Below, piece by piece: positions 8,724 to 18,906 of a DNA stretch of 64,000 nt. The notes under the pieces were generated by a model. It did no database searches, was not told the DNA's origin, and saw nothing but the letters and a program-made list of their open reading frames with translations. A program made the position numbers and the translations under genes. The stretch comes from a virus. The stretch lies in IMG/VR virus record IMGVR_UViG_3300045988_126281; one strand, given 5' to 3'. How positions within the stretch are numbered: position 1 is the first letter of the stretch; every line of letters begins with the position of its first letter.

Positions 8724-9545
8724 TTAAACATTATGAACTTCAACATAAATATTAATTAAATCATTAAGTGAGTTATAAAGTGGAATAACACTATCTCTTA
8801 TACATTTATATATAGTATTATTTTGAGAATAATATTTATTAGCATAAAGAATCATATTTCCATTATATGGAATAGGGTCTTCAACAGTACCTTTATTTTG
8901 TTCATTAATTTCAGTATAAACAGTAGCAGCATCAGTCGGAAGCCAATTTGATTGAACAGTATGTTTAAGTAGCGCTTTAAACAATCTATCGTTATATATA
9001 AGTTTAGTATTAACATCTATCTCTTTACCAATTAGTTCTTCCCATTTAGGATATATAGATTTAATATTTACAGATTCTTCATCAGATAAATTAAATTTAT
9101 TAGAAACTATTTTAATAAAAGATTCAATATCTGAATTTTTTATTAAATTATGTTTAGTAAAATCTTTTTTCTGAATATTAAAATCATTTCGCACTTTATC
9201 TTTTATAATACTAACAGTTTCAAGATATTCTTTATATTCAGAAAACTCTTCGTCAGAAATAAGCATATCAAGTTGCATTTTAGAAGCTACATTTATAAAC
9301 TTAAATTCTTCTTCTAAAGTATAATAATTTCTAATAATAGCTTTAGCGCAATCAGAATAATTAGGAAGTCCAGAAAGTTTAACCCAAGTACAAAGCCAAT
9401 AAGGTTTGTTTTCTGTTTTTCCATCAATATCAACTACATCTTCATTACCAGTTTCAATAACATAAGTATAGATATAATTGTTATTACCAAGCCTATTAAT
9501 AATTATAGGCTGTTCATTTGTCTTAAATAATTGTTTGATTTCCAT
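8724..9545 (-). CDS. Hypothetical protein
   Basis: 273-aa ORF; its 5' end overlaps the RT gene 3' end by 43 nt. Confidence 0.55.
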   Translation of the reverse strand: MEIKQLFKTNEQPIIINRLGNNNYIYTYVIETGNEDVVDIDGKTENKPYWLCTWVKLSGLPNYSDCAKAIIRNYYTLEEEFKFINVASKMQLDMLISDEEFSEYKEYLETVSIIKDKVRNDFNIQKKDFTKHNLIKNSDIESFIKIVSNKFNLSDEESVNIKSIYPKWEELIGKEIDVNTKLIYNDRLFKALLKHTVQSNWLPTDAATVYTEINEQNKGTVEDPIPYNGNMILYANKYYSQNNTIYKCIRDSVIPLYNSLNDLINIYVEVHNV

Positions 9546-10720
9546 ATTTTAATAGTAGTTGGAAGTATTTTGTTTATTATAGTTTTATAAAGTATTTTAT
9601 TAGTAGAAACAGTATAATAAGAATGACCCTTATAAATAAAATTAATTTTAAAATACTTATTATGAACATCTATATCAATAACATTTATAACCTTATCATA
9701 AAGATTAGAAATTTTAATATAAGGAGCTACCCAATTAGTATATTTAATTCCTGTAAGTTTTTGAATTTTATAAAGAAGATTTTTAGAATTACAATATTTA
9801 CACCAACCAAAATAAGAACGAAAATGAATTTCAAAATATTTTTTATCTATGGTTCTGTTAACATAAGAATATACAAGTTTCATAATATTCTTTTTAATAC
9901 TTTTTCTTAAAAGTATATAATTATGATAAAACTTATATCCAATAAAATCAATACCTCTTTTGTCAACTTCAAATATTTGATAATTTTCTTTAAGTTCTAA
10001 TTTAAGAACTTGATGTAAATACATTTTTATAAGTATTAAAATCTTTCTAAGTTCTTCTTTAGTTTTTCCTAAAATAACAATATCATCTGCATATCTAAAA
10101 TAAAATTTACATTTAACTTCTTCTTTTAGCCAATGGTCAAAATAGGTTAAATATAAATTAGCAAAGAATTGAGAAAGATAATTTCCAATAGGAACTCCAT
10201 CAGAAGATTCAATAATATCTTTAAGTAAAATTAAAAGTTTGTTATCTTTAACTTTTCTTTTTATAATTTCAAAAAGAATTTCATGGTTAATAGAAGGATA
10301 AAATTTCTTTATATCTAGTTTAAGACAATATTTAGTGTTTTCAATATTATTTTCAAGACACTTTTTTAAATCTCTGTTAAGTTTAGTAATTCCTCTTTCT
10401 TTAACACAAGAATAAGTATGAGAAATAAAAATATTAACCCAGATAGGTTCCATAATATTCATAATAGCATGATGAGTAATTCTATCGGGATAATATGGAA
10501 GTTTAAAAATTAATCTTTCTTTAGGTTCATAAATTTTAAAAGTAGTATAAGTAGAAGTATGATAGTTAAGATTTATTAAATCATTAAGAAGTTTTTCATT
10601 TTCTTCTTTTCTATGTTCATTATGTTTTATAATATCTTTTCTAAGTTTTTTATCATTACTTGCTTTGTCATCAGCATATTCAATATTATCTTTAGTACAA
10701 ATTTTTTTCAAAAAGACCAT
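9503..10720 (-). CDS. Reverse transcriptase of a diversity-generating retroelement
   Basis: RT motifs LDIKKFYPSINHEIL (motif A/3), SQFFANLYLTYFDH (motif 4), FRYADDIVILG (YxDD catalytic motif); adjacent TR/VR pair. Confidence 0.85.
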   Translation of the reverse strand: MVFLKKICTKDNIEYADDKASNDKKLRKDIIKHNEHRKEENEKLLNDLINLNYHTSTYTTFKIYEPKERLIFKLPYYPDRITHHAIMNIMEPIWVNIFISHTYSCVKERGITKLNRDLKKCLENNIENTKYCLKLDIKKFYPSINHEILFEIIKRKVKDNKLLILLKDIIESSDGVPIGNYLSQFFANLYLTYFDHWLKEEVKCKFYFRYADDIVILGKTKEELRKILILIKMYLHQVLKLELKENYQIFEVDKRGIDFIGYKFYHNYILLRKSIKKNIMKLVYSYVNRTIDKKYFEIHFRSYFGWCKYCNSKNLLYKIQKLTGIKYTNWVAPYIKISNLYDKVINVIDIDVHNKYFKINFIYKGHSYYTVSTNKILYKTIINKILPTTIKIWKSNNYLRQMNSL

Positions 10721-10854
10721 TTATTCTTTTCATAATTATATTTCTATTTATAGAGCGTTCAATATTATATTTACTAACACTATGTTCGATTGCTACGTTA
10801 TTTTTTACCAAGAGGTAAGGTTTAATATTTTGTTCATTAAAAAATTTGAAATAT

Positions 10855-10956
10855 AAAAGAAACTACGATTGGCATTAGCATTACTAACACTATTATTAGA
10901 ATTAGAATAACTAAAACTAGCATTACTGCTATCATTAGCATTACTACTAGTTAACA
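10855..10956 (-). repeat. DGR template repeat (TR), non-coding, between RT and target gene
   Basis: About 102 nt, about 75% identical to 11035..11136. All 25 mismatches fall where the TR has T on the + strand, which is A on the - (sense) strand. The sense strand is rich in AAT/AAC codons. Confidence 0.85.
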
Positions 10957-11017
10957 ATTTAACTAATAACAATCAATATTAAACCTATGTTATTAATAAA
11001 CTTATGATTATAAAAAA

Positions 11018-13396
11018 TTATATTCTAATGCAAGAAAAGAAACCACGATTGGCAGTAGCAAAACCAACACCAGCACTAGAAAGAGAACAACCAAAACCAG
11101 CAGAACCGCCATCATGAGCACGACCACCAGCGAACAGCGTTTTTTTATCAGCATTATTATTCGTGTAATGATAATCACTTTTATAAGTAACCGATGTTGC
11201 TCCAATTGTAGCAGGAATTATCTCAGCTTTGTCACCAAACACAAATGTTTTAATATAACCGTAATCCTTTGATTCAGTTCCTCTTATTTCTTTATTTAAA
11301 ATATCATCATCAAATTTTGTGTTATCAGAAGTAGCATAAATAGTATTAGCAGAATTAGCATCTGGTTTTTGTAAGATAATTCCTTCAAGATTTTTACAAT
11401 AATCACCAAATAAGTTTTCAAGCCCTCTATATTTACAAGGTGTTAATGTAATAGCATTAATAGCATAAGAACCATCAATAACAATTGTTGGTATAGAAAA
11501 ATCTTTTACTCCGCTAAAATTACCAATATCATTAAGATAACCACAAGGAGTAATAGGATTATAATTATTAAATTTTACCCAAGCATTTGATTGAGAAAAA
11601 GTGGTTAATCCATTACCAAGACCTCCTTGATGATAACCATCACTTGTTAATTCTGCATTAAATGGGAGTTGACAATTAAAATTAGCATATTCTACATAAT
11701 AACACCAACAAAGAGCCTTATAAAAATCATAACAAAGAATCTCTTGATTATTAGCAGCATTAGCTATATATGTTCTCATAGTAATACGAGAAACATTTGT
11801 AACCGGTTTACCAAGATTACTTCTATAAGGTAGTGTGTCTAAATAACTGTCTAAAGAAGAATCATTGCTTCCACCTCTATAAGCAGTAGAAGTATTCATA
11901 ACAACACAAGCCTTAGGTGTATCAGCAATAGTTCTATCAAGTGTAATTCCCCAAGCACTAATAAGCAATCTTGGGACTTCAGTCCAAGTATTATCAACTT
12001 TTGTTAATGACATTCTAAACTGACGTTTATTACCGTTTTCAAATCCTTTATAATACCATACGTTTCCAGTATCAACACGTACATCTCCATCAGTTCCATC
12101 AAGTACAGAAGCAGAGCCATCAGCCTTTTTAGACCAATCGTTAGGGTCAAGATAATATTGAACTTTATTTCCTTTAGCAACGCAGCCCTTAAATGCAGAT
12201 TGAATAGGAAGAGTACGATGCATCGACATATTACCTATACGAGCACAGGCTGAATCAGCTACTGTAATATCCCATTCAATACCATAACTTATTTGGTCAA
12301 GAAAATTAACAGAAATAGTACCATCAGCATCAACATCAATTCCTGAGCCTATCTTTACAACACCTAACTTATCCTGTGCAGCTTTTGGCAAATCATCAAA
12401 AATAAGATTTCCATCAGCTCCTTTTTTAAGATATTGTCCGGCACTACCGCCTTCAGGCAAGATTACATTCTCACCCTCTTTAATTTTTGTTACGGTACCA
12501 TCAGTAGCAATATTATATTTTACTACATGTCCATTAGCAGTATTAATATTAGCCACTCCTCCATCAGTACTGTTCCATGTAGCTACACCATAACCATAAT
12601 CAATAGATACAAGTTGAGTTCCTGTATGTAATTGTTCTATATTAAATGCCTTTATCTCAGCAGAATCTCCAATCTCTAGATGAGTATATTCTTCAAGTTT
12701 ATCAATATCAACAGAAGCAAAACTTGAAGTTTCTCCTGTTTCAAATGAAACATCTTCTATTTTAAGAGCACCATTAACTACAAAAGTAACTGTACCGTTA
12801 AAATAATTACCAATACATTTAAGTCCGTTGTTATTTGTAACAATAACTGGAATCGATTGATTAGTAGAATATTTAGCAGTAACTTCAAGATTCTTTGCCT
12901 TAGATTCATCAGAATTATCGAGATATATTGTTTCATCTGCTCCACTTCCACCACCTTTATTTCCAATAGCTCTTGCGTACCATTCTGTAAATTCTCCTTC
13001 ACGAGAAAAATAATCCCATCTATATGGAGAATAATTATCATTAACTTCAGTAGTAGTTAAAGTAACATTAAAAATAGGAATACCTCCAATACCTTCAATA
13101 ACTTGAATAGTAACTTCAGCATTTGCTATATTATTAGGTAAGTCAGACATATTAACTTGACCTTGGAACATATCATTAAGAGAAATAGTTCCTGCATAAT
13201 AAGCATCATTAAGAGATTTAAAGAACTCTTCAGAAGTACCATTAACTTTAACATTATTTGGAATATCTCCTATAATTCCATCAGACTTACCTCTCATGGA
13301 TTTAAGATATTTCCAAAGAAATATTCTATCTTTTTTATCAAGTTGAGTTATTTTCTCAATTGTATCAAAAAGTTGTCTATCTTTTGCGTTATTCAT
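11018..13396 (-). CDS. DGR target protein: tail fibre or receptor-binding protein with C-terminal variable region
   Basis: 792-aa ORF. The VR lies in its last ~40 codons (...GGSAGFGCSLSSAGVGFATANRGFFSCIRI), the Gly/Ser/Ala-rich C-terminus typical of a C-type-lectin-fold DGR target. Confidence 0.8.
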   Translation of the reverse strand: MNNAKDRQLFDTIEKITQLDKKDRIFLWKYLKSMRGKSDGIIGDIPNNVKVNGTSEEFFKSLNDAYYAGTISLNDMFQGQVNMSDLPNNIANAEVTIQVIEGIGGIPIFNVTLTTTEVNDNYSPYRWDYFSREGEFTEWYARAIGNKGGGSGADETIYLDNSDESKAKNLEVTAKYSTNQSIPVIVTNNNGLKCIGNYFNGTVTFVVNGALKIEDVSFETGETSSFASVDIDKLEEYTHLEIGDSAEIKAFNIEQLHTGTQLVSIDYGYGVATWNSTDGGVANINTANGHVVKYNIATDGTVTKIKEGENVILPEGGSAGQYLKKGADGNLIFDDLPKAAQDKLGVVKIGSGIDVDADGTISVNFLDQISYGIEWDITVADSACARIGNMSMHRTLPIQSAFKGCVAKGNKVQYYLDPNDWSKKADGSASVLDGTDGDVRVDTGNVWYYKGFENGNKRQFRMSLTKVDNTWTEVPRLLISAWGITLDRTIADTPKACVVMNTSTAYRGGSNDSSLDSYLDTLPYRSNLGKPVTNVSRITMRTYIANAANNQEILCYDFYKALCWCYYVEYANFNCQLPFNAELTSDGYHQGGLGNGLTTFSQSNAWVKFNNYNPITPCGYLNDIGNFSGVKDFSIPTIVIDGSYAINAITLTPCKYRGLENLFGDYCKNLEGIILQKPDANSANTIYATSDNTKFDDDILNKEIRGTESKDYGYIKTFVFGDKAEIIPATIGATSVTYKSDYHYTNNNADKKTLFAGGRAHDGGSAGFGCSLSSAGVGFATANRGFFSCIRI
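11035..11136 (-). repeat. DGR variable repeat (VR) within the 3' end of the target gene
   Basis: Pairs with the TR at an offset of 180 nt; differences are restricted to TR adenines on the sense strand. Confidence 0.85.
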
Positions 13397-13477
13397 TGTT
13401 ATATAAAATTAAATAAAGGTAGCACTACCAAAATAAATATTTACTTTAATAGTACTACCTTAATCCGTATTGTTTAT

Positions 13478-14446
13478 TTATTTAGCAGTCCAAGAATCTG
13501 TAGAATCAACTATAACGTTTTGTGGTGTTGTACTACCAGATTCAAATGTAAGCATAGCAGGAGTAATATTAATTGCAGGTTCAATACCAGCTTGAATAAA
13601 TATAAGAACAATATAGGTACGATTATCTCCAATACCATATTCCATACTAACTTCGATAGCACTAATACTATCAGTAGTATTATTTGCAGGATAAGTTACA
13701 ATTCCTGTATCAGAATCTAATGACCAACCTGTATAAGATTTAACAATAGATAATGATGCATTATCGGTTGCATTAGCAGTAGAACCTGATGAATAAGTAA
13801 TTTTAACATTTACTAATTTATCAATGTTATAAGAAGTACTATCAGCTGTAACATTAATACGTTTAGCTAATCCACTATATCCAGCATGCCAACTAATAAA
13901 TTCTTTTTTAGTTATAATATTTTTATCTTGTTTCCAAGGAATATTTTGTCGAGTTGTAGATTTTCCATTATAAGTAATAGAAAGATTAATGCTGAATTTA
14001 GTAGTTTCTTCTGAAACGTTAGTTCCTTTACTTCCAACAGTTGCTTCACATTTTTTCTTATCTAATGTTACATCAGATGGTAGTGCATTAGTATTTTCCA
14101 TATGTTTATTAAATCCATCAGCAACAGTATCTTGAGTAAACTCTAATCTTCCAACTTCATCACCATCAGAAGTTTCGCGATATATTTGATAACCTTTAAA
14201 TTGAAGTTTCTTAGTTCCACCACCAGCAGAAAAATTAGGAGTAGTAACTTCGGTAATTACAGGATTATCATAAATATATTCGCCAGTTCCTTTAAACAAA
14301 CAAGTTAGTTTAGCAGTAGTTCCTTTAGCGTTAGTAAAAACAACTTCTTTAGTTGCATCATTTTTTCCTATATAAGCTTCAGGAGTAACTTGAACAACAG
14401 TTTCCCCAGAAGAACCGCTTGTTTTATCTAATATTACATTAGGCAT
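13478..14446 (-). CDS. BACON-domain tail-fibre paralog
   Basis: N-terminus (MPNVILDKTSGSSGETVVQVTPEAY...GYQIYRET) is paralogous to the 14467 and 16018 ORFs. C-terminus ITPAMLTFESGSTTPQNVIVDSTDSWTAK is BACON-like and shared with the 17557 ORF. Confidence 0.7.
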   Translation of the reverse strand: MPNVILDKTSGSSGETVVQVTPEAYIGKNDATKEVVFTNAKGTTAKLTCLFKGTGEYIYDNPVITEVTTPNFSAGGGTKKLQFKGYQIYRETSDGDEVGRLEFTQDTVADGFNKHMENTNALPSDVTLDKKKCEATVGSKGTNVSEETTKFSINLSITYNGKSTTRQNIPWKQDKNIITKKEFISWHAGYSGLAKRINVTADSTSYNIDKLVNVKITYSSGSTANATDNASLSIVKSYTGWSLDSDTGIVTYPANNTTDSISAIEVSMEYGIGDNRTYIVLIFIQAGIEPAINITPAMLTFESGSTTPQNVIVDSTDSWTAK

Positions 14447-14466
14447 TATTTTTTTTAATAATTAAT

Positions 14467-16014
14467 TTATTCAGGCTTAGTACTAACTATTTCAATATAA
14501 ATATCAGGAGTAGCTTGGTCTTTACTATAAAGTTTAATATTTTCTTCAGCACAAATAATTTCTGGATAATGAGCAATAAATTTAAGAATCTTATCTTCAG
14601 ATGGCATATAATCAGGGTCTAATGTGCCTCCATCAACTGTTGCATAAACATTAGAATTAACTGCGCCACCAGTATTTCCTTCCCAATTAGCAGTTAAAAA
14701 TCCAGCACTATGATAATAAAGCGTTGTAGGAAGAAGTTGTCCACTACCAATAGATTGGTTTAAATCACTAATCCTATCATTCATTCCAAGAATAAGAAGG
14801 CCTAAACCAACAAAATATTGTTGATACTGATAGCCAGTATCAAATGGGTCTAATGAAAGATTTATAGCTCCAGGAATTTTAACATATTGCTCTTTATTCA
14901 TTGTAGGAGCAATAGCGCCAACACATTCAAGTTTCTTAATAGAATGAGTAAGTATAGGATGCTCTCTATTTATATCTGAATCTTCAAATCCAGCAATAAA
15001 ATAATGCAAATAAATATCAAGATTTGACAAATTAACATCAGTATTATTTTTAATATAAAGATTGGCCATTTCAGTAGGATTCTGAATTATTTGCCAACTA
15101 TCAAATGAATCGACTTCAATGGTTTTAGCTTCAACAGAACTATTTTTAAATACAAGTTCAGTAGGTCTAACTGTCATATAAGACTCCTTACCTGCAATAG
15201 CAAAAGTAATAATCAATTGACTAATACTATCTGCAAGTTTAACTTGCATACCTTCTCTTGTATCAGTTGATAGATTTTCTTGCCAAGAAACTGTATTTTG
15301 AGAAAGATTAATAAATGAACCTGGTTTATGGACTGTCGTAGTACCATCAACTGTTATTTCATTAGAAGCGCCAGAAGTATAAATTTGTGCATATTGAATA
15401 CCTGTATTAATTTCATAACTACCAGCTTTAGGGCCAACTGTTTTATTAATAGCAGTACTCTTATCTCCAGTTTCAATAAATTTAATAAGAGTTTTAGATT
15501 TTATTTCATTAGCTTCTTGATAAACTTGAACAGAATCAGAAGTTACAGAAGCCTCATTAAGATTTATTGAAGCATAAACAGTAGCTTTTACTTTACGAGA
15601 AGCAAGAGTTGTTCCAAGATTATCTCCAGAAACACTGCCCGTAGAAGGGTCTGTTGCCCCATTAAAATTAACATTTCCTAAAGATCTAATAGAAGTATAA
15701 TCGAAAGTTAAACGACCTGCTTCAGCACCTCCAACAGTTTCTCTATAAATTTGATAACCTTCTATAGTAGGTAAAACATTTCCACCAGCTGCTGAAATAT
15801 CATTAGGATATTCAAATCTAGTTATAATTGGTGTATCATAAACAAATCTACCAGAACCTTTAAATATACATTGAAGCACGGCAGTTTTTCCTTTAGTAGT
15901 AGTAAAAGTTACAGTTTCTTGAACATCATTTTTACCATTATAACCATTTGGAGTTATATTAACATTAGTAACTCCAGATGTTCCACTTGTTTTATTTAAA
16001 ACAGCATTTTCCAT
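14467..16014 (-). CDS. BACON-domain tail-fibre paralog
   Basis: N-terminal ~100 aa align with the 13478 ORF (LNKTSGTSGVTNVNITPNGY...GYQIYRET); internal TVRPTELVFKNSSVEAKTIEVDSFDSWQI motif. Confidence 0.7.
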   Translation of the reverse strand: MENAVLNKTSGTSGVTNVNITPNGYNGKNDVQETVTFTTTKGKTAVLQCIFKGSGRFVYDTPIITRFEYPNDISAAGGNVLPTIEGYQIYRETVGGAEAGRLTFDYTSIRSLGNVNFNGATDPSTGSVSGDNLGTTLASRKVKATVYASINLNEASVTSDSVQVYQEANEIKSKTLIKFIETGDKSTAINKTVGPKAGSYEINTGIQYAQIYTSGASNEITVDGTTTVHKPGSFINLSQNTVSWQENLSTDTREGMQVKLADSISQLIITFAIAGKESYMTVRPTELVFKNSSVEAKTIEVDSFDSWQIIQNPTEMANLYIKNNTDVNLSNLDIYLHYFIAGFEDSDINREHPILTHSIKKLECVGAIAPTMNKEQYVKIPGAINLSLDPFDTGYQYQQYFVGLGLLILGMNDRISDLNQSIGSGQLLPTTLYYHSAGFLTANWEGNTGGAVNSNVYATVDGGTLDPDYMPSEDKILKFIAHYPEIICAEENIKLYSKDQATPDIYIEIVSTKPE

Positions 16015-16017
16015 ATA

Positions 16018-17547
16018 TTAACTATTAAGAAAGCCTTCATTTGTAGTTTCAACATTAATGTCATTTCCATTATATCTAGTAGGAGCCATATTAGAAAGAT
16101 AAGAACTTTGAAGAGTAAGATTACCTTCTTTTATATTTTCAATTGGGATAGCTTGTGAATAAGGAAGAACATCAATAGTTGTAGTTTCACCAGTAAAGTT
16201 TACATTAGCTTCTTTATCAATTTGTTTATAACCTTGAGTTCCAGTAGGAGTATAACTTACGCTAAGTTTTTCAATTCCGGTAATTGCTCTTTCTGGAAGA
16301 TTTGAAGCAGAATAAAGTTCTCCATATTGGTCTTTAAGGAAATATTCAACATATACGTATTTACCAATTACAGTTTCAGGGTCGTCACCATATCCTTTAA
16401 GTTTATCGACACATTTAACATTTCTATAAAGGGTTAGCATTGTAGTTTGACGTTCTTGAGTAACTTCAAATTCCCAAAAATCTGTACAAACAATTTTACC
16501 AGTTCTGTTATCAGTAGAATTATTTCTAGCAACAGAATAACTAATTTCATAATCTGTATTAATAGAAGATACTGTAGTAGGAGTAAGCCAAAAACTATCA
16601 GAACTAAATACAGTGACAGTATTAGTATAACATTTAAACGAATTAATAGTAGCTTCCCAACTAACTCTATTTCTTTCTGGAATAATAAACGACCAAGGTT
16701 CTGCAAGAGTGGAAGTAAAAATTACATCACCACTTATTATATCAATAGTTTGTTTAACAGTCGATGATAAGTTAGAACCCCAATCAGCTTGATATTGAGG
16801 AGAAGAAGTGTGTCCAGCTTGTATTGTAACATCTTCAGGTTCTCCATATTTATAAAAAGCAGGAACTGAATTTCCAGTATAAGTTATATTAATAGAAGAT
16901 GTTTCATTTTTAGTTACTGTAAATTCAATATATTTAGTTCCACTAATATCAGTTTTAAGAATACCAGATGCTTGATATTTTAAAAGACCATCTTTATCAG
17001 AAAGTCCAAGAATATATTCTTTTGGTTTAGCAACAGTACCTTCTGTAATATAAACTTGATATATAGCATCAGCTACATAATCCATATTAGAGCTTAAATA
17101 ATTTCCTTTACCCTCTATTTCAAGAGCATTTATTTCTTTATAGTCATAAAATCTAAAAGTATTTAAAGTTAAATCAATATCTGTAAATATATTAGAATTA
17201 AAACAAGCAGCAGTCGCTCCAGTTTCAGTAGTACTATGTTGTGGAACATAAGTTTTAGAATTAGATGCTTGAACCGAAAAAGATATATCTTTATCGGTTG
17301 TATTAGGAATTGTAAACCAATAAACGTAACCTGTTCTATCTGTCCTTTTATAATGAGGAGTAACAATATATGTTTGTTTTACTTTAGGAGTACAAGTAAC
17401 CAAGCATCGAGCAATTTTTCCTTTTGTATTTCTAAATACTAAAGTTTGCTGTTTTTCGCTTGTATATGCATCAGGAACAATAGTAATTGTTGTTGGAATT
17501 GTATTTCCTGATACAGGATTAACATTTAAAAACCCTATTTTACTCAT
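16018..17547 (-). CDS. Tail-fibre paralog
   Basis: N-terminus MSKIGFLNVNPVSGNTIPTTITIVPDAY resembles the neighbouring paralogs. Confidence 0.65.
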   Translation of the reverse strand: MSKIGFLNVNPVSGNTIPTTITIVPDAYTSEKQQTLVFRNTKGKIARCLVTCTPKVKQTYIVTPHYKRTDRTGYVYWFTIPNTTDKDISFSVQASNSKTYVPQHSTTETGATAACFNSNIFTDIDLTLNTFRFYDYKEINALEIEGKGNYLSSNMDYVADAIYQVYITEGTVAKPKEYILGLSDKDGLLKYQASGILKTDISGTKYIEFTVTKNETSSINITYTGNSVPAFYKYGEPEDVTIQAGHTSSPQYQADWGSNLSSTVKQTIDIISGDVIFTSTLAEPWSFIIPERNRVSWEATINSFKCYTNTVTVFSSDSFWLTPTTVSSINTDYEISYSVARNNSTDNRTGKIVCTDFWEFEVTQERQTTMLTLYRNVKCVDKLKGYGDDPETVIGKYVYVEYFLKDQYGELYSASNLPERAITGIEKLSVSYTPTGTQGYKQIDKEANVNFTGETTTIDVLPYSQAIPIENIKEGNLTLQSSYLSNMAPTRYNGNDINVETTNEGFLNS

Positions 17548-17556
17548 ATCTTAATT

Positions 17557-18906
17557 TTATTTAGCAGTCCAAGAATCACTACTATCAATAATTACATTTT
17601 GAGGAGTAGTAGATGTTGAATCAAAAATAAGAATAGTTGGAGTTATATTAATATAATTACTTTCAAGAGATATTTCAACAGTAGTTTCCTTAACTCCTCC
17701 ATAAGTAATTGTATATTCTTGGCTTACTGTGTCGTATCCATCTTTACTTACTTCAATAGTTCCTTTTATAGTATTATTAGAAGTATTTAAGAAATCAAAA
17801 GATTTACTTGATTGAATAACTCCATCAATTTTAATAATGGCATCTGAAGGATTTGCTCTGACTATAAGTTTATAAGTATCTACAATAAGTTGAATATTTT
17901 CAACTGTTTCTTTTGTTATAGTTCTAGCAAAAGTTTGAGTAATATATCCTCTTTTGGAAACTTTAACGTTAATAGAAGTTCCAGCAGCAACAGTTATTTG
18001 TTTTTGCTTAATTCCATTTATTTCAACTGTTGCATCGCTAGGTGTAGGATTAACTCTATAAGTAAATTTATCAGGAACAATTTCTTCAAGAACTACATCA
18101 ATTGTTCTATCTTCGTCAAGAACTAAATTATCTGATTTTGTTATATATCCGTCTTTAAGAACACTCCAATTAATAGTTGTTCCTTTAGGATAATTTTTAC
18201 TTACAGAACCAATAGAAGAAACATTATTAATAATAACAGTAGAATCAGATGGAGTAGGATTAATTGTAAGTGTGTTATAAACAACTACAATTCCTTCAAG
18301 AACAATATCAATATGTCTATCGGAAGTTATAGTAATATTGTTTGTATAAGGTTTATATCCAGAAGCCTTAGCTTCAACTTTAACGACAGTTCCTCTAGTA
18401 ACTGTAAGTTGTTTTGTTACAGTTCCATTAAGTTTAACAACTGCATCAGAAGGAGTAACTGTATCAACATATAAAGTAAATGTTTCAACAGCTTCTCTTT
18501 CAAGAGTAACTCTTAAAGTTTCATCATGAGTTAAAGTTTTAGAAGCAGTATAAGTTTCATATCCATCTTTTGAAACTTCAATATTAACAACTGTACCAGC
18601 TCTATCAGTTATTTCTTTTTGAGCAACTCCATTAATTAAAACAGTTGCATCACTAGGAATTGTAATTACTCTAAGAGTATAATATTGGCTTGGTGTAGGA
18701 CTACCTCCACCATAGCAAATTGGTTGCCAATATTCTCTATCATAAATATCAGTTCCTGCAGGAACTGGTTTTCTTGAAATAAAAGAGCGTAAAGTAGAAT
18801 CATCTTCTACATAAACGCAACAAAGTTCTTCATAACTAATTGTAGGGTCAAATTCCCCATTCATAGTTAGACAAACTTTACCTAAATCTTGTTTATAAAG
18901 TTCCAT
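17557..18906 (-). CDS. Structural protein with five tandem PEGA-like Ig repeats and a C-terminal BACON-like motif
   Basis: Repeats of ~65 aa, each with P[ST]SD[AS][TV]V.[IL][ND]G...G; the protein ends ...TTPQNVIIDSSDSWTAK. Confidence 0.7.
   Translation of the reverse strand: MELYKQDLGKVCLTMNGEFDPTISYEELCCVYVEDDSTLRSFISRKPVPAGTDIYDREYWQPICYGGGSPTPSQYYTLRVITIPSDATVLINGVAQKEITDRAGTVVNIEVSKDGYETYTASKTLTHDETLRVTLEREAVETFTLYVDTVTPSDAVVKLNGTVTKQLTVTRGTVVKVEAKASGYKPYTNNITITSDRHIDIVLEGIVVVYNTLTINPTPSDSTVIINNVSSIGSVSKNYPKGTTINWSVLKDGYITKSDNLVLDEDRTIDVVLEEIVPDKFTYRVNPTPSDATVEINGIKQKQITVAAGTSINVKVSKRGYITQTFARTITKETVENIQLIVDTYKLIVRANPSDAIIKIDGVIQSSKSFDFLNTSNNTIKGTIEVSKDGYDTVSQEYTITYGGVKETTVEISLESNYINITPTILIFDSTSTTPQNVIIDSSDSWTAK

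What the first reader, a model, noticed from the sequence alone, without database searches (positions are those of the whole stretch)
9503..13396. Complete diversity-generating retroelement: RT, 102-nt TR, and an adenine-mutated VR at the 3' end of a 792-aa tail-fibre gene
TR (10855..10956) and VR (11035..11136) align at a constant +180 offset. Over ~98 aligned positions I count 25 mismatches. Every one lies where the TR has T on the + strand, which is A on the transcribed - strand. 25 of the 31 TR adenines differ and 6 are conserved. Homology stops abruptly at 10957/11137. This is the canonical A-to-N mutagenic homing signature. The upstream ORF 9503..10720 carries RT motifs including FRYADDIVIL. 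The TR sense strand is packed with AAT/AAC codons. The VR lies in the Gly/Ser-rich C-terminus of the target, consistent with a C-type-lectin-fold receptor-binding tip. No separate accessory (avd-like) ORF is evident between target and RT, which is atypical and worth checking. The phage could therefore hypermutate a receptor-binding protein.
Basis: partly seen in the sequence, partly recalled or inferred. Interest (0 to 1): 0.8.

Follow-up and report, generated by a model that had tools for sequence, protein, structure and literature searches.

The report
Avd-less tail-fibre DGR in a crAss-like phage
This is a genuine, probably active diversity-generating retroelement that rewrites the receptor-binding tip of a tail-fibre protein in a crAss-like gut phage. 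Elements of this compact, accessory-gene-free type are already well described in such phages.

Summary
TR 10855..10956 and VR 11035..11136 align without gaps at +180. There are 25 mismatches, all at TR adenines on the coding (-) strand, and 0 of 71 non-adenine positions differ (P about 2e-18).

Sister genomes (93-95% identical) keep the TR but carry different VRs. Of 31 adenine columns, 22 vary; of 71 other columns, 2 vary. A more distant relative's VR follows its own TR at 6 of 6 non-adenine differences.

The missing avd is not atypical. Target-VR-TR-RT without Avd is the published "lineage 3 / architecture A" layout of crAss-like phage DGRs.

Additional findings:
- A covariation-supported structured RNA lies in the TR-RT spacer.
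- TR adenines followed by G become G about 95% of the time in this RT clade.
- Two sister genomes have an adenine-mutagenised TR.
- The window's RT start is shifted by an A7/A6 homopolymer frameshift.

Verdict: a new member of a known kind.

The parts
11018..13396 (-). DGR target gene, 792 aa. It is a tail (fibre) protein. The N-terminal 360 aa have no recognisable family.
   Evidence: ORF. Residues 361-790 match phrog_5302 'tail protein' at 3e-78. tblastn finds tail or tail-collar fibre proteins of crAss-like phages next to their RTs. There is no Pfam or PDB sequence hit.
11021..12316 (-). C-terminal 432-aa region of the target. It contains an FGE-type C-type-lectin fold that carries the VR at its end.
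11035..11136 (-). Variable repeat (VR). It encodes residues 754-787 and ends 5 codons before the stop at 11018-11020.
   Evidence: The VR differs among sister genomes almost only at TR-adenine columns.
10957..11017 (-). VR-TR intergenic spacer, 61 nt. It is AT-rich and conserved among sister genomes. It has no GC-rich IMH-adjacent hairpin. It carries an AGGTT motif about 30 nt upstream of the TR.
   Evidence: Alignment. Hairpin survey. AGGT motif present in 21 of 52 distinct upstream flanks.
10855..10956 (-). Template repeat (TR), non-coding, with 31 adenines. In the target's frame it reads AAT x9, AGT x8, AGC x1.
   Evidence: It is nearly invariant among sister genomes, with 2 polymorphic columns.
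10730..10831 (-). Conserved structured RNA in the TR-RT spacer. P1 hairpin: UUACC 10818-10814, loop UCUU, GGUAA 10809-10805. P2 stem at about 10783-10751, with an invariant UAGUA/GAA internal loop.
   Evidence: RNAalifold: 12 pairs, 8 of them with compensatory changes. CM R1 gives one hit per locus, always just upstream of the RT: 84 hits in 85 sources, 86.4 bits in the window. 98.4% of cells are paired, 0 of 500 shuffles reach this, and slid controls give 34-79%. Sub-threshold Rfam hits to RT-17 and RT-18.
9503..10720 (-). DGR reverse transcriptase, 405 aa as an ORF. Residues 6-325 align with bRT. Residues 326-405 are a C-terminal extension that bRT lacks.
   Evidence: The C-terminal extension is conserved in 68 related loci.
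10702..10733 (-). Ancestral RT start (ATG at 10733) and an A7 homopolymer (10702-10708). The extra A puts the first 10 ancestral codons out of frame in this genome.
   Evidence: Alignments. Close relatives encode 409-aa RTs starting MKRINGLFEK.

Best explanation
The region is a complete diversity-generating retroelement of the accessory-gene-free type (Wu et al. lineage 3 / architecture A) that is common in crAss-like phages.

All parts lie on the - strand in this order: tail-fibre target gene, VR, 61-nt gap, TR, 134-nt structured spacer, RT.

Inferred mechanism, by analogy with the Bordetella phage BPP-1 system:
1. A transcript covering the TR and the spacer is bound by the RT.
2. [quoted passage not shown]
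3. The cDNA replaces the VR.
4. This rewrites up to 22 codons in the last 34 residues of a C-type-lectin-fold receptor-binding domain, while scaffold positions encoded by non-adenine bases stay fixed.

What is shown here:
- the anatomy;
- RT family membership;
- the adenine-only TR/VR differences;
- the CLec fold (from a model);
- a conserved RNA structure in the spacer;
- from sister genomes, that VRs were rewritten from their own TRs after the lineages split.

What is inferred: cDNA priming by the spacer RNA, how the VR rather than the TR is chosen as recipient, and how the system works without Avd.

In this RT clade, adenines followed by G are almost always converted to G. The nine AGY codons of the TR therefore act as near-fixed glycine codons. 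Real diversification rests on the 22 remaining adenines (AAT x9 plus TTA, ACT, GAT and TAT), giving about 5e12 protein variants.
For: - Adenine specificity: 25 of 25 mismatches on 31 adenines, 0 of 71 elsewhere; P = 1.7e-18.
- RT: RVT_1 at 1.3e-18, phrog_1423 at 2.7e-102, bRT 8ub7_A at E 8.6e-40 with IGNYLSQ and YADD aligned.
- Target and VR position.
- CLec fold.
- Same architecture in cr7_1 and LMMB and in 76 of 83 sequences scanned (82 fetched loci plus the window).
- Homing after divergence: across 4 distinct VRs of the species, 22 of 31 adenine columns are polymorphic against 2 of 71 non-adenine columns. For the first trio of genomes, Fisher P = 3e-12.
- Concerted TR-VR change: L003's VR follows its own TR at 6 of 6 non-adenine TR differences, and L083's TR T>C is mirrored in its VR.
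- About 24 related 698-aa targets have invariant flanks and a hypervariable last 35 aa.
- Spacer RNA.
- Literature: PMC7290462, PMC12386605, PMC5758913.
Against: - No experiment and no read-level data were available. Activity in this particular genome is inferred.
- The window's RT start is displaced by a 1-nt homopolymer difference, so the first 10 ancestral residues are replaced.
- None of the target-recognition elements defined in BPP-1 is visible: no GC-rich IMH, no IMH/IMH* mismatches, no stable hairpin after the VR (PMC3240598).
- Six contigs of one sister lineage, from several samples, share one identical VR. Turnover at the consensus level is therefore not fast.
Confidence: 0.9

Rival explanations
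1. The cassette is a recently inactivated relic. The TR/VR signature records past homing, but the RT of this genome is crippled by the frameshift at its start, so the VR is now frozen.
For: - The window has A7 where all close relatives have A6, which shifts the ancestral start codon out of frame.
- DGR decay is common in this clade. L107 has lost the TR and 285 RT codons. L110 has lost both TR and RT. L106 keeps only 25 RT codons. L090 and L091 have a TR with only 3 adenines left.
- The literature reports many incomplete cassettes in alpha crAss-like phages (PMC7290462).
Against: - An in-frame ATG at 10720 restores the ORF. Only about 10 N-terminal residues, upstream of the region that aligns with bRT, are replaced.
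- The catalytic motifs, the TR (31 adenines) and the spacer RNA are all intact.
- The VR has 0 of 71 non-adenine mismatches, although flanking DNA differs by 5-7% between strains.
- A homopolymer length error in the assembly is equally possible.
Confidence: 0.15
2. The ORF immediately downstream of the RT (8724..9545, 273 aa) is a cryptic accessory factor that replaces Avd. On this reading the cassette is target-VR-TR-RT-accessory.
For: - It overlaps the RT 3' end by 43 nt.
- A homologue lies directly after the RT in 72 RT-anchored loci.
- Starting from p273 itself, 29 of 30 full-length homologues have an RT or an RT remnant just upstream.
- The N-terminal domain alone is the gene next to the RT in cr7_1.
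- It is absent from cr3_1, the nearest relative that lacks a DGR.
Against: - It is retained where the RT and TR are deleted (L107, L110, L106).
- Its C-terminal half is a widespread phage domain, annotated as carbohydrate-binding, that occurs without any RT in 47 of 50 loci.
- It has no Avd, HRDC or other Pfam match.
- LMMB-type cassettes carry an unrelated 94-aa ORF in that position.
- Conserved tail-module synteny explains the linkage.
Confidence: 0.08
3. This is not a retroelement at all. It is a tandem-like duplication of the gene's 3' end that diverged under AT-biased mutation.
For: The genome has 28% G+C, and the non-coding copy is the AT-richer one.
Against: - Divergence is confined to one base on one strand (25 of 25).
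- Sister genomes show the VR re-randomised at exactly those columns while the TR stays constant.
- A DGR-clade RT and a conserved spacer RNA sit next to the repeat.
Confidence: 0.01

Closest known systems
DGR of crAssphage LMMB and other alpha (Intestiviridae), delta, epsilon and zeta crAss-like phages (Morozova 2020, PMC7290462; PMC12386605; PMC11054128)
   Same: - Order target-VR-TR-RT on one strand, with no avd.
- The target is a tail (collar) fibre protein, homologous over its C-terminal 430 aa (30% identity to LMMB, 47% to cr7_1).
- The RT is 52-55% identical.
- TR and VR 3' ends are identical.
- The VR has a Gly-rich scaffold.
   Different: - The host phage is a different lineage. Its TerL is 74% identical to Diorhovirus cr3_1, which has no DGR. 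There is no megablast-level DNA match in the phage collection.
- The target is longer (792 aa against 486 aa) and has an unrelated N-terminal half.
- The VR-TR distance is 180 nt against 270 nt.
Bordetella phage BPP-1 DGR (mtd-avd-TR-brt), the experimentally defined prototype
   Same: - The RT is homologous over its whole catalytic core (E 9e-40).
- Mismatches are adenine-specific.
- The VR lies at the C-terminus of a CLec-fold receptor-binding protein.
- A spacer of about 130-140 nt with a structured RNA lies between TR and RT (RT-10 motif in BPP-1, PMC5737381).
   Different: - No Avd.
- No (GC)14 plus 21-bp IMH/IMH* asymmetry, and no cruciform after the VR (PMC3240598).
- The RT has an extra 80-aa C-terminal extension.
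- The TR uses AAT and AGT rather than AAC.
- Adenines before G are converted to G about 95% of the time, whereas in the out-group DGRs sampled such adenines are rare and mostly unchanged.
Thermus aquaticus variable protein TaqVP (PDB 5vf4) and FGE-type CLec proteins (TvpA, CarF/CotH-like)
   Different: Sequence identity is about 10%. The comparison rests on a predicted model, not a solved structure.
Rfam RT-17 (RF03020) and RT-18 (RF03021) RNA motifs (Weinberg 2017)
   Same: The position is upstream of an RT gene. A 5' hairpin CCUC-UUGG and a second stem with a UAGUA...GAA internal loop align to the models.
   Different: Scores are 31.5 and 29.4 bits, below the gathering thresholds of 40.4 and 41.3. 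None of 11 related loci passes the threshold. This is a related but uncatalogued variant.

Membership tests
Diversity-generating retroelement (DGR) | Reverse transcriptase of the DGR clade, with the [I/L/V]GxxxSQ motif and a YxDD catalytic site | tested here: met
   PIGNYLSQ and FRYADDIVIL are present in the ORF. Best PDB match is Bordetella bRT 8ub7_A at E 8.6e-40 over residues 6-325, far ahead of group II intron and retron RTs at E 1e-16 or weaker.
Diversity-generating retroelement (DGR) | A TR/VR repeat pair whose differences are confined to TR adenines | tested here: met
   25 of 25 mismatches fall on adenines and 0 of 71 elsewhere; P = 1.7e-18.
Diversity-generating retroelement (DGR) | VR inside a protein-coding target gene (usually its 3' end), TR non-coding and next to the RT | tested here: met
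   The VR ends 5 codons before the stop of the 792-aa ORF. The TR lies 134 nt upstream of the RT ORF on the same strand.
Diversity-generating retroelement (DGR) | Variable residues displayed on a C-type-lectin (or Ig) fold | tested here: met
Diversity-generating retroelement (DGR) | Evidence of ongoing or recent mutagenic homing (VR variation at adenine positions in populations) | tested here: met
   Among four distinct VRs of the species, 22 of 31 adenine columns are polymorphic against 2 of 71 others. There is concerted TR-VR change at 6 of 6 sites in L003. Only assembled consensus sequences were compared; read-level heterogeneity was not tested.
Diversity-generating retroelement (DGR) | Accessory gene (avd, HRDC, etc.). 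Present in most DGRs but not defining. | tested here: not met
   No ORF lies between target and RT other than the TR read-through. Neighbouring ORFs have no Avd or HRDC Pfam hit. The downstream 273-aa ORF is probably structural.
BPP-1-type target recognition (IMH/IMH* plus cruciform) | GC-rich IMH core, IMH/IMH* mismatches at the repeat's 3' end, and a stable hairpin within about 35 bp downstream of the VR | tested here: not met
   TR and VR are identical up to ...GGTTTCTTTT and then diverge completely. That stretch is AT-rich. Only weak AT-only hairpins follow the VR, and no hairpin is conserved across the family.
Wu et al. 2018 lineage 3 / architecture A DGRs | Target-TR-RT order without accessory genes; RT clusters with Bacteroidales-associated lineage 3; CLec3-class VR | tested here: inconclusive
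   The architecture is met. The nearest annotated RTs include LMMB's, which its authors placed in lineage 3. No RT phylogeny against the Wu reference set was run here. The LMMB paper notes that crAss VRs deviate from the CLec3 consensus.
Rfam RT-17 / RT-18 RNA | Score at or above the family gathering threshold | tested here: not met
   31.5 bits against 40.4, and 29.4 bits against 41.3. Eleven related loci give no hit at the gathering threshold.
Crassvirales (crAss-like phage) as host genome | crAss-type major capsid protein, portal and large terminase, with the typical two-block gene orientation | tested here: met
   phrog_11589, phrog_6547 and phrog_6681 match at E 1e-135 or better. TerL is 74% identical and MCP 76% identical to cr3_1, Intestiviridae. 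GC skew switches sign near 36 kb.

The most novel reading that the evidence does not exclude
The RT clade to which this element belongs has an intrinsic, near-deterministic context rule: a template adenine whose 3' neighbour is G is copied as G. This would arise by incorporating C, for example by re-using the just-copied G as template. TR 'AGY' codons would then be hard-wired glycine codons rather than variable positions.

The same Avd-less lineage has no TR/VR asymmetry at the repeat's 3' end. It may therefore occasionally home into its own TR and destroy it, as seen in two sister genomes. Together these would be natural, selection-independent read-outs of how an Avd-free DGR works.
Probability: 0.4. 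Interest if true: 0.6.

Novelty: new member of a known kind. Interest (0 to 1): 0.35.

Why it matters
As a DGR in a crAss-like phage it adds one more lineage, a Diorhovirus-related Intestiviridae phage, to a documented phenomenon. It marks the 792-aa protein as the likely host-recognition determinant of this phage.

The wider value lies in the comparative by-products. Avd-less "lineage 3" DGRs have no known mechanism. This work yields three things that could guide reconstitution of such a system:
- a spacer RNA with strong covariation and an invariant UAGUA/GAA loop;
- a clade-specific AG-to-GG outcome, seen even at synonymous sites and in a non-coding mutagenised TR;
- natural cases of TR self-mutagenesis.

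The AG rule also changes the calculated repertoire size, from about 1e18 to about 5e12 protein variants.

Tried and rejected
- Second VR elsewhere in the window: none found by an adenine-masked scan on both strands.
- Exact or masked TR pattern in IMG/VR: no hits. The same-species genomes came instead from the metagenome scan and from exact-protein look-ups of near-identical RTs. The window's own RT protein is not on record.
- Sequence-level CLec evidence for the target: none in Pfam or PDB, even with a profile.
- First AF2 run with a shallow alignment failed (pLDDT 42). Adding the p-crAssphage gp54-like subfamily to the alignment rescued it.
- BPP-1-like hairpin after the VR: not found in the window and not conserved in the family.
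- Sigma-70 promoter scan: uninformative in 28% G+C DNA, with 43 hits against 29 expected.
- Single-sequence folding of the spacer is not significant (z -0.55). Only the comparative analysis supports the structure.
- The 273-aa downstream ORF as an Avd substitute: considered and largely rejected.
- Glycine selection as the full explanation of AGY-to-GGY: rejected, because the same bias holds at codon positions 2 and 3. It is 101 of 106 at fourfold-degenerate sites.

Full report
OBSERVATION

TR 10855..10956 and VR 11035..11136 align without gaps at a constant +180 offset. Of 102 positions, 25 differ. Every difference lies where the + strand TR has T, which is A on the - strand that carries all genes here. 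Of the 31 TR adenines, 25 are changed, and 0 of 71 other positions differ. The hypergeometric probability of that distribution is 1.7e-18. An adenine-masked scan of both strands of the 64-kb window finds only this pair. The repeat finder recovers it independently. In the target's reading frame the TR reads AAT x9, AGT x8, AGC x1 and no AAC. Adenines sit mainly at codon positions 1 and 2.

WHAT IT IS

On the - strand the order is as follows:
- a 792-aa ORF (13396 to 11018), with the VR ending 5 codons before its stop;
- 61 nt of intergenic sequence;
- the TR;
- 134 nt of spacer;
- a 405-aa ORF (10720 to 9503).

The 405-aa protein is a reverse transcriptase: Pfam RVT_1 at 1.3e-18 and phrog_1423 at 2.7e-102. 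Its best solved relative is the Bordetella DGR enzyme bRT (8ub7_A, E 8.6e-40, residues 6-325), well ahead of retron and group II intron RTs. The DGR hallmarks IGNYLSQ and YADD are aligned.

Residues 361-790 of the target match a phage tail-protein family (phrog_5302, 3e-78). They also match tail or tail-collar fibre proteins that sit next to RTs in crAss-like phages. Neither Pfam nor the PDB matches the target by sequence.

The genome itself is a crAss-like phage:
- major capsid, portal and terminase families match at E 1e-135 or better;
- TerL is 74% identical to cr3_1, Intestiviridae, genus Diorhovirus;
- G+C is about 28%;
- there is no DNA-level match in the phage collection.

cr3_1 lacks the RT, the target and four neighbouring ORFs, while the flanks are syntenic. 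The DGR therefore sits in a swapped tail-fibre module.

IS IT ACTIVE?

The window's exact RT protein is not on record, and its TR pattern is absent from IMG/VR. A metagenome scan and look-ups of 96-98% identical RTs gave nine loci of the same species (L083-L091). A more distant relative, L003, came from an earlier scan.

In the alignment the TRs are almost invariant, while the VRs differ. Across the four distinct VRs of the species:
- 22 of 31 TR-adenine columns are polymorphic;
- only 2 of 71 non-adenine columns are polymorphic;
- for the first trio of genomes, Fisher P = 3e-12.

Where TRs differ at non-adenine positions, each VR follows its own TR. This holds at 6 of 6 sites between the window and L003, and for the T>C polymorphism of L083. 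That concerted change shows that VRs were rewritten from their TRs after these lineages separated.

At protein level, about 24 genomes carry 698-aa homologues with invariant flanks and a hypervariable last 35 residues around a fixed scaffold, GG.A...AGFG..S..GVG.A.A.RGFFS.

Against rapid turnover, six contigs of one lineage, from several samples, share one identical VR.

THE MISSING AVD

It is not. crAssphage LMMB was published with exactly this target-VR-TR-RT layout and no avd, and was assigned to lineage 3 (PMC7290462). Wu et al. report that 29% of DGRs have no accessory gene and that lineage 3 "notably lacks avd" (PMC5758913). DGRs are described in alpha, delta, epsilon and zeta crAss-like phages, with CLec-tipped tail fibres as targets (PMC12386605).

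My adenine-tolerant detector finds the same compact arrangement in 76 of the 83 sequences scanned (82 fetched loci plus the window). The VR-to-TR offset is 134-355 nt and the TR-to-RT spacer is 112-190 nt.

I also examined the 273-aa ORF that overlaps the RT 3' end (8724..9545).
- For a link with the RT: a homologue follows the RT in 72 loci. Starting from that protein, 29 of 30 full-length homologues have an RT or an RT remnant just upstream.
- Against an accessory role: it persists where the RT and TR have been deleted (L107, L110, L106). Its C-terminal half is a widespread domain annotated as carbohydrate-binding.

I therefore read it as a tail-module gene, not an Avd substitute.

HOW IT LIKELY WORKS

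By analogy with BPP-1, a TR-spacer transcript is reverse-transcribed with misincorporation opposite adenines, and the cDNA replaces the VR.

The spacer is not inert.
- It gives sub-threshold Rfam hits to RT-17 and RT-18 (31.5 and 29.4 bits). These motifs were found upstream of RT genes. Their sibling RT-10 lies between TR and brt in BPP-1 (PMC5737381).
- RNAalifold on 17 diverse spacers predicts a 5-bp hairpin (UUGCC-UCUU-GGCAA; UUACC...GGUAA in the window at 10818-10805). It also predicts a longer stem enclosing an invariant UAGUA/GAA internal loop. Eight of the 12 pairs show compensatory changes.
- A covariance model finds exactly one hit per locus, always just upstream of the RT: 84 hits in 85 sources across 1.02 Mb.
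- 98.4% of cells are paired, 0 of 500 shuffles reach this, and slid controls give 34-79%.

From my own knowledge, AGUA/GAA is the loop-E / sarcin-ricin signature.

What remains unknown is recipient choice. BPP-1 uses a (GC)14 element, a 21-bp IMH with 5 mismatches to IMH*, and a cruciform (PMC3240598). Here TR and VR are identical up to ...GGTTTCTTTT and then diverge. That stretch is AT-rich, and no conserved hairpin follows the VR.

The RT also has an 80-residue C-terminal extension that bRT lacks. It is conserved in 68 related loci and its role is unknown.

THINGS FOUND IN PASSING

1. Context rule for adenines before G.
   - All nine TR adenines followed by G are G in the window's VR.
   - At those nine columns, 35 of the 36 bases across the four distinct VRs of the species are G.
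   - Over 73 distinct TR/VR pairs of this RT clade, AG becomes GG in 94-97% of 473 sites.
   - The bias holds in all three codon positions. It is 101 of 106 at fourfold-degenerate third positions, with no C or T. Glycine selection therefore cannot be the whole cause.
   - In 11 out-group phage DGRs, AG adenines are rare and mostly unchanged: 21 of 26 stay A.
   - A 2026 study of bRT found that the 3' neighbour is the main determinant of the error spectrum. It proposed re-use of the preceding template base (PMC12875486). The pattern here would be an extreme, clade-specific version of that effect.
   - It cuts the theoretical repertoire from about 1.3e18 to about 4.9e12 proteins.

2. Mutagenised TR in sister genomes. 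In L090 and L091 the sequence at the TR position differs from the species TR at 28 of its 31 adenines. Apart from one known polymorphism it differs nowhere else, and only 3 adenines are left. It is not a copy of the current VR. The TR itself has been mutagenised, either by misdirected homing or by conversion from an earlier VR. Its AG sites are 8 G and 1 A.

3. RT start. The window's RT start is displaced by an A7 run (10702-10708) where relatives have A6. Relatives start MKRINGLFEK at the ATG that corresponds to window 10733.

4. Recoded relatives. Many related RT loci lie on contigs of about 180 kb and carry in-frame stops under the standard code.

VERDICT

This is a real, complete and probably functional DGR. 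It is a new member of a well-described kind. Interest in the element itself is modest. The comparative observations on the Avd-less clade are the part worth following up.

Noticed in passing
window TR 10855..10956 / VR 11035..11136; loci L001-L091: TR adenines followed by G are almost always G in the VR. This holds at 9 of 9 sites in the window and at 94-97% of 473 sites in 73 TR/VR pairs of this RT clade. It holds in all codon positions, including 101 of 106 fourfold-degenerate sites. AAT adenines, by contrast, show a mixed spectrum. In 11 out-group DGRs, AG adenines are rare and mostly unchanged. This suggests a clade-specific mechanistic bias (compare the slippage model in PMC12875486).
   Followed up: partly
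L090:2778-2879 and L091:2778-2879 (sister genomes; equivalent to window 10855..10956): The sequence at the TR position is itself adenine-mutagenised. It differs from the species TR at 28 of 31 adenines and otherwise only at one known polymorphism, so 3 adenines remain. It is independent of the current VR (19 differences). The RT ORF is intact. This looks like homing into the TR, or conversion from an earlier VR, in a system whose TR and VR 3' ends are identical.
   Followed up: partly
window 10702..10733 (-): All close relatives start the RT at an ATG equivalent to window 10733 (MKRINGLFEKICTK..., 409 aa). The window has A7 instead of A6 at 10702-10708, which puts that start out of frame. The ORF instead begins at 10720 (MVFLKKICTK..., 405 aa). 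This could be a real frameshift or a homopolymer assembly error.
   Followed up: partly
window 8724..9545 (-): A 273-aa ORF overlaps the RT 3' end by 43 nt. It is tightly linked to this RT clade (29 of 30 full-length homologues follow an RT). It is nevertheless retained where the RT and TR are deleted (L107, L110, L106). The N-terminal domain corresponds to cr7_1 gp04. The C-terminal domain is a widespread 'carbohydrate binding'-annotated phage domain. It is absent from cr3_1.
   Followed up: yes
window 9503..9760 (-), RT residues 326-405: The RT carries an 80-residue, probably beta-rich C-terminal extension that Bordetella bRT lacks. It is conserved in 68 related loci and matches no family. 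It might compensate for the missing Avd, but this was not tested.
   Followed up: partly
L107, L110, L106/L109 (IMG/VR contigs related to the window): These are natural decay variants of the cassette. L107 joins the VR 3' end (window 11036) to RT codon 286 (window 9866). L110 has the target stop followed directly by the 273-aa gene. L106 keeps only the last 25 RT codons behind a different upstream module.
   Followed up: partly
L004-L061 and others (contigs of 105-200 kb); L056:7192-7965, L059:7289-7927: Many relatives of the RT, and of the downstream gene, carry in-frame stop codons under the standard code (7 in one 260-codon gene). This fits the stop-codon recoding reported for large crAss-like phages. 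The window itself reads cleanly with code 11.
   Followed up: no
window 10980..10990 (-) and the equivalent position in 21 of 52 distinct loci: An AGGT(T) motif recurs 14-60 nt upstream of the TR in otherwise unalignable VR-TR intergenic regions. It could be a promoter element or part of the RNA's 5' end.
   Followed up: no
window 13416..13461 (-): A long terminator-like hairpin followed by a T-run lies between the upstream gene (13478..14446) and the target gene's start. The target and DGR may therefore form their own transcription unit.
   Followed up: no
window 13478..17652 (-): Four consecutive ORFs upstream of the target (322, 515, 509 and 449 aa) share repeated N- and C-terminal segments (repeat families D4, D7, D14). 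They have no counterpart in cr3_1, so they look like a paralogous set of tail or fibre proteins in the same variable module.
   Followed up: no
L086:4543-5154, L087, L089 (contigs of 22-29 kb): In three sister contigs, homology to the window stops inside the 273-aa gene (window 9191). It is followed by unrelated sequence with a Thia_YuaJ (thiamine transporter) hit near the contig end. This could be an assembly chimera or a recombination junction.
   Followed up: no
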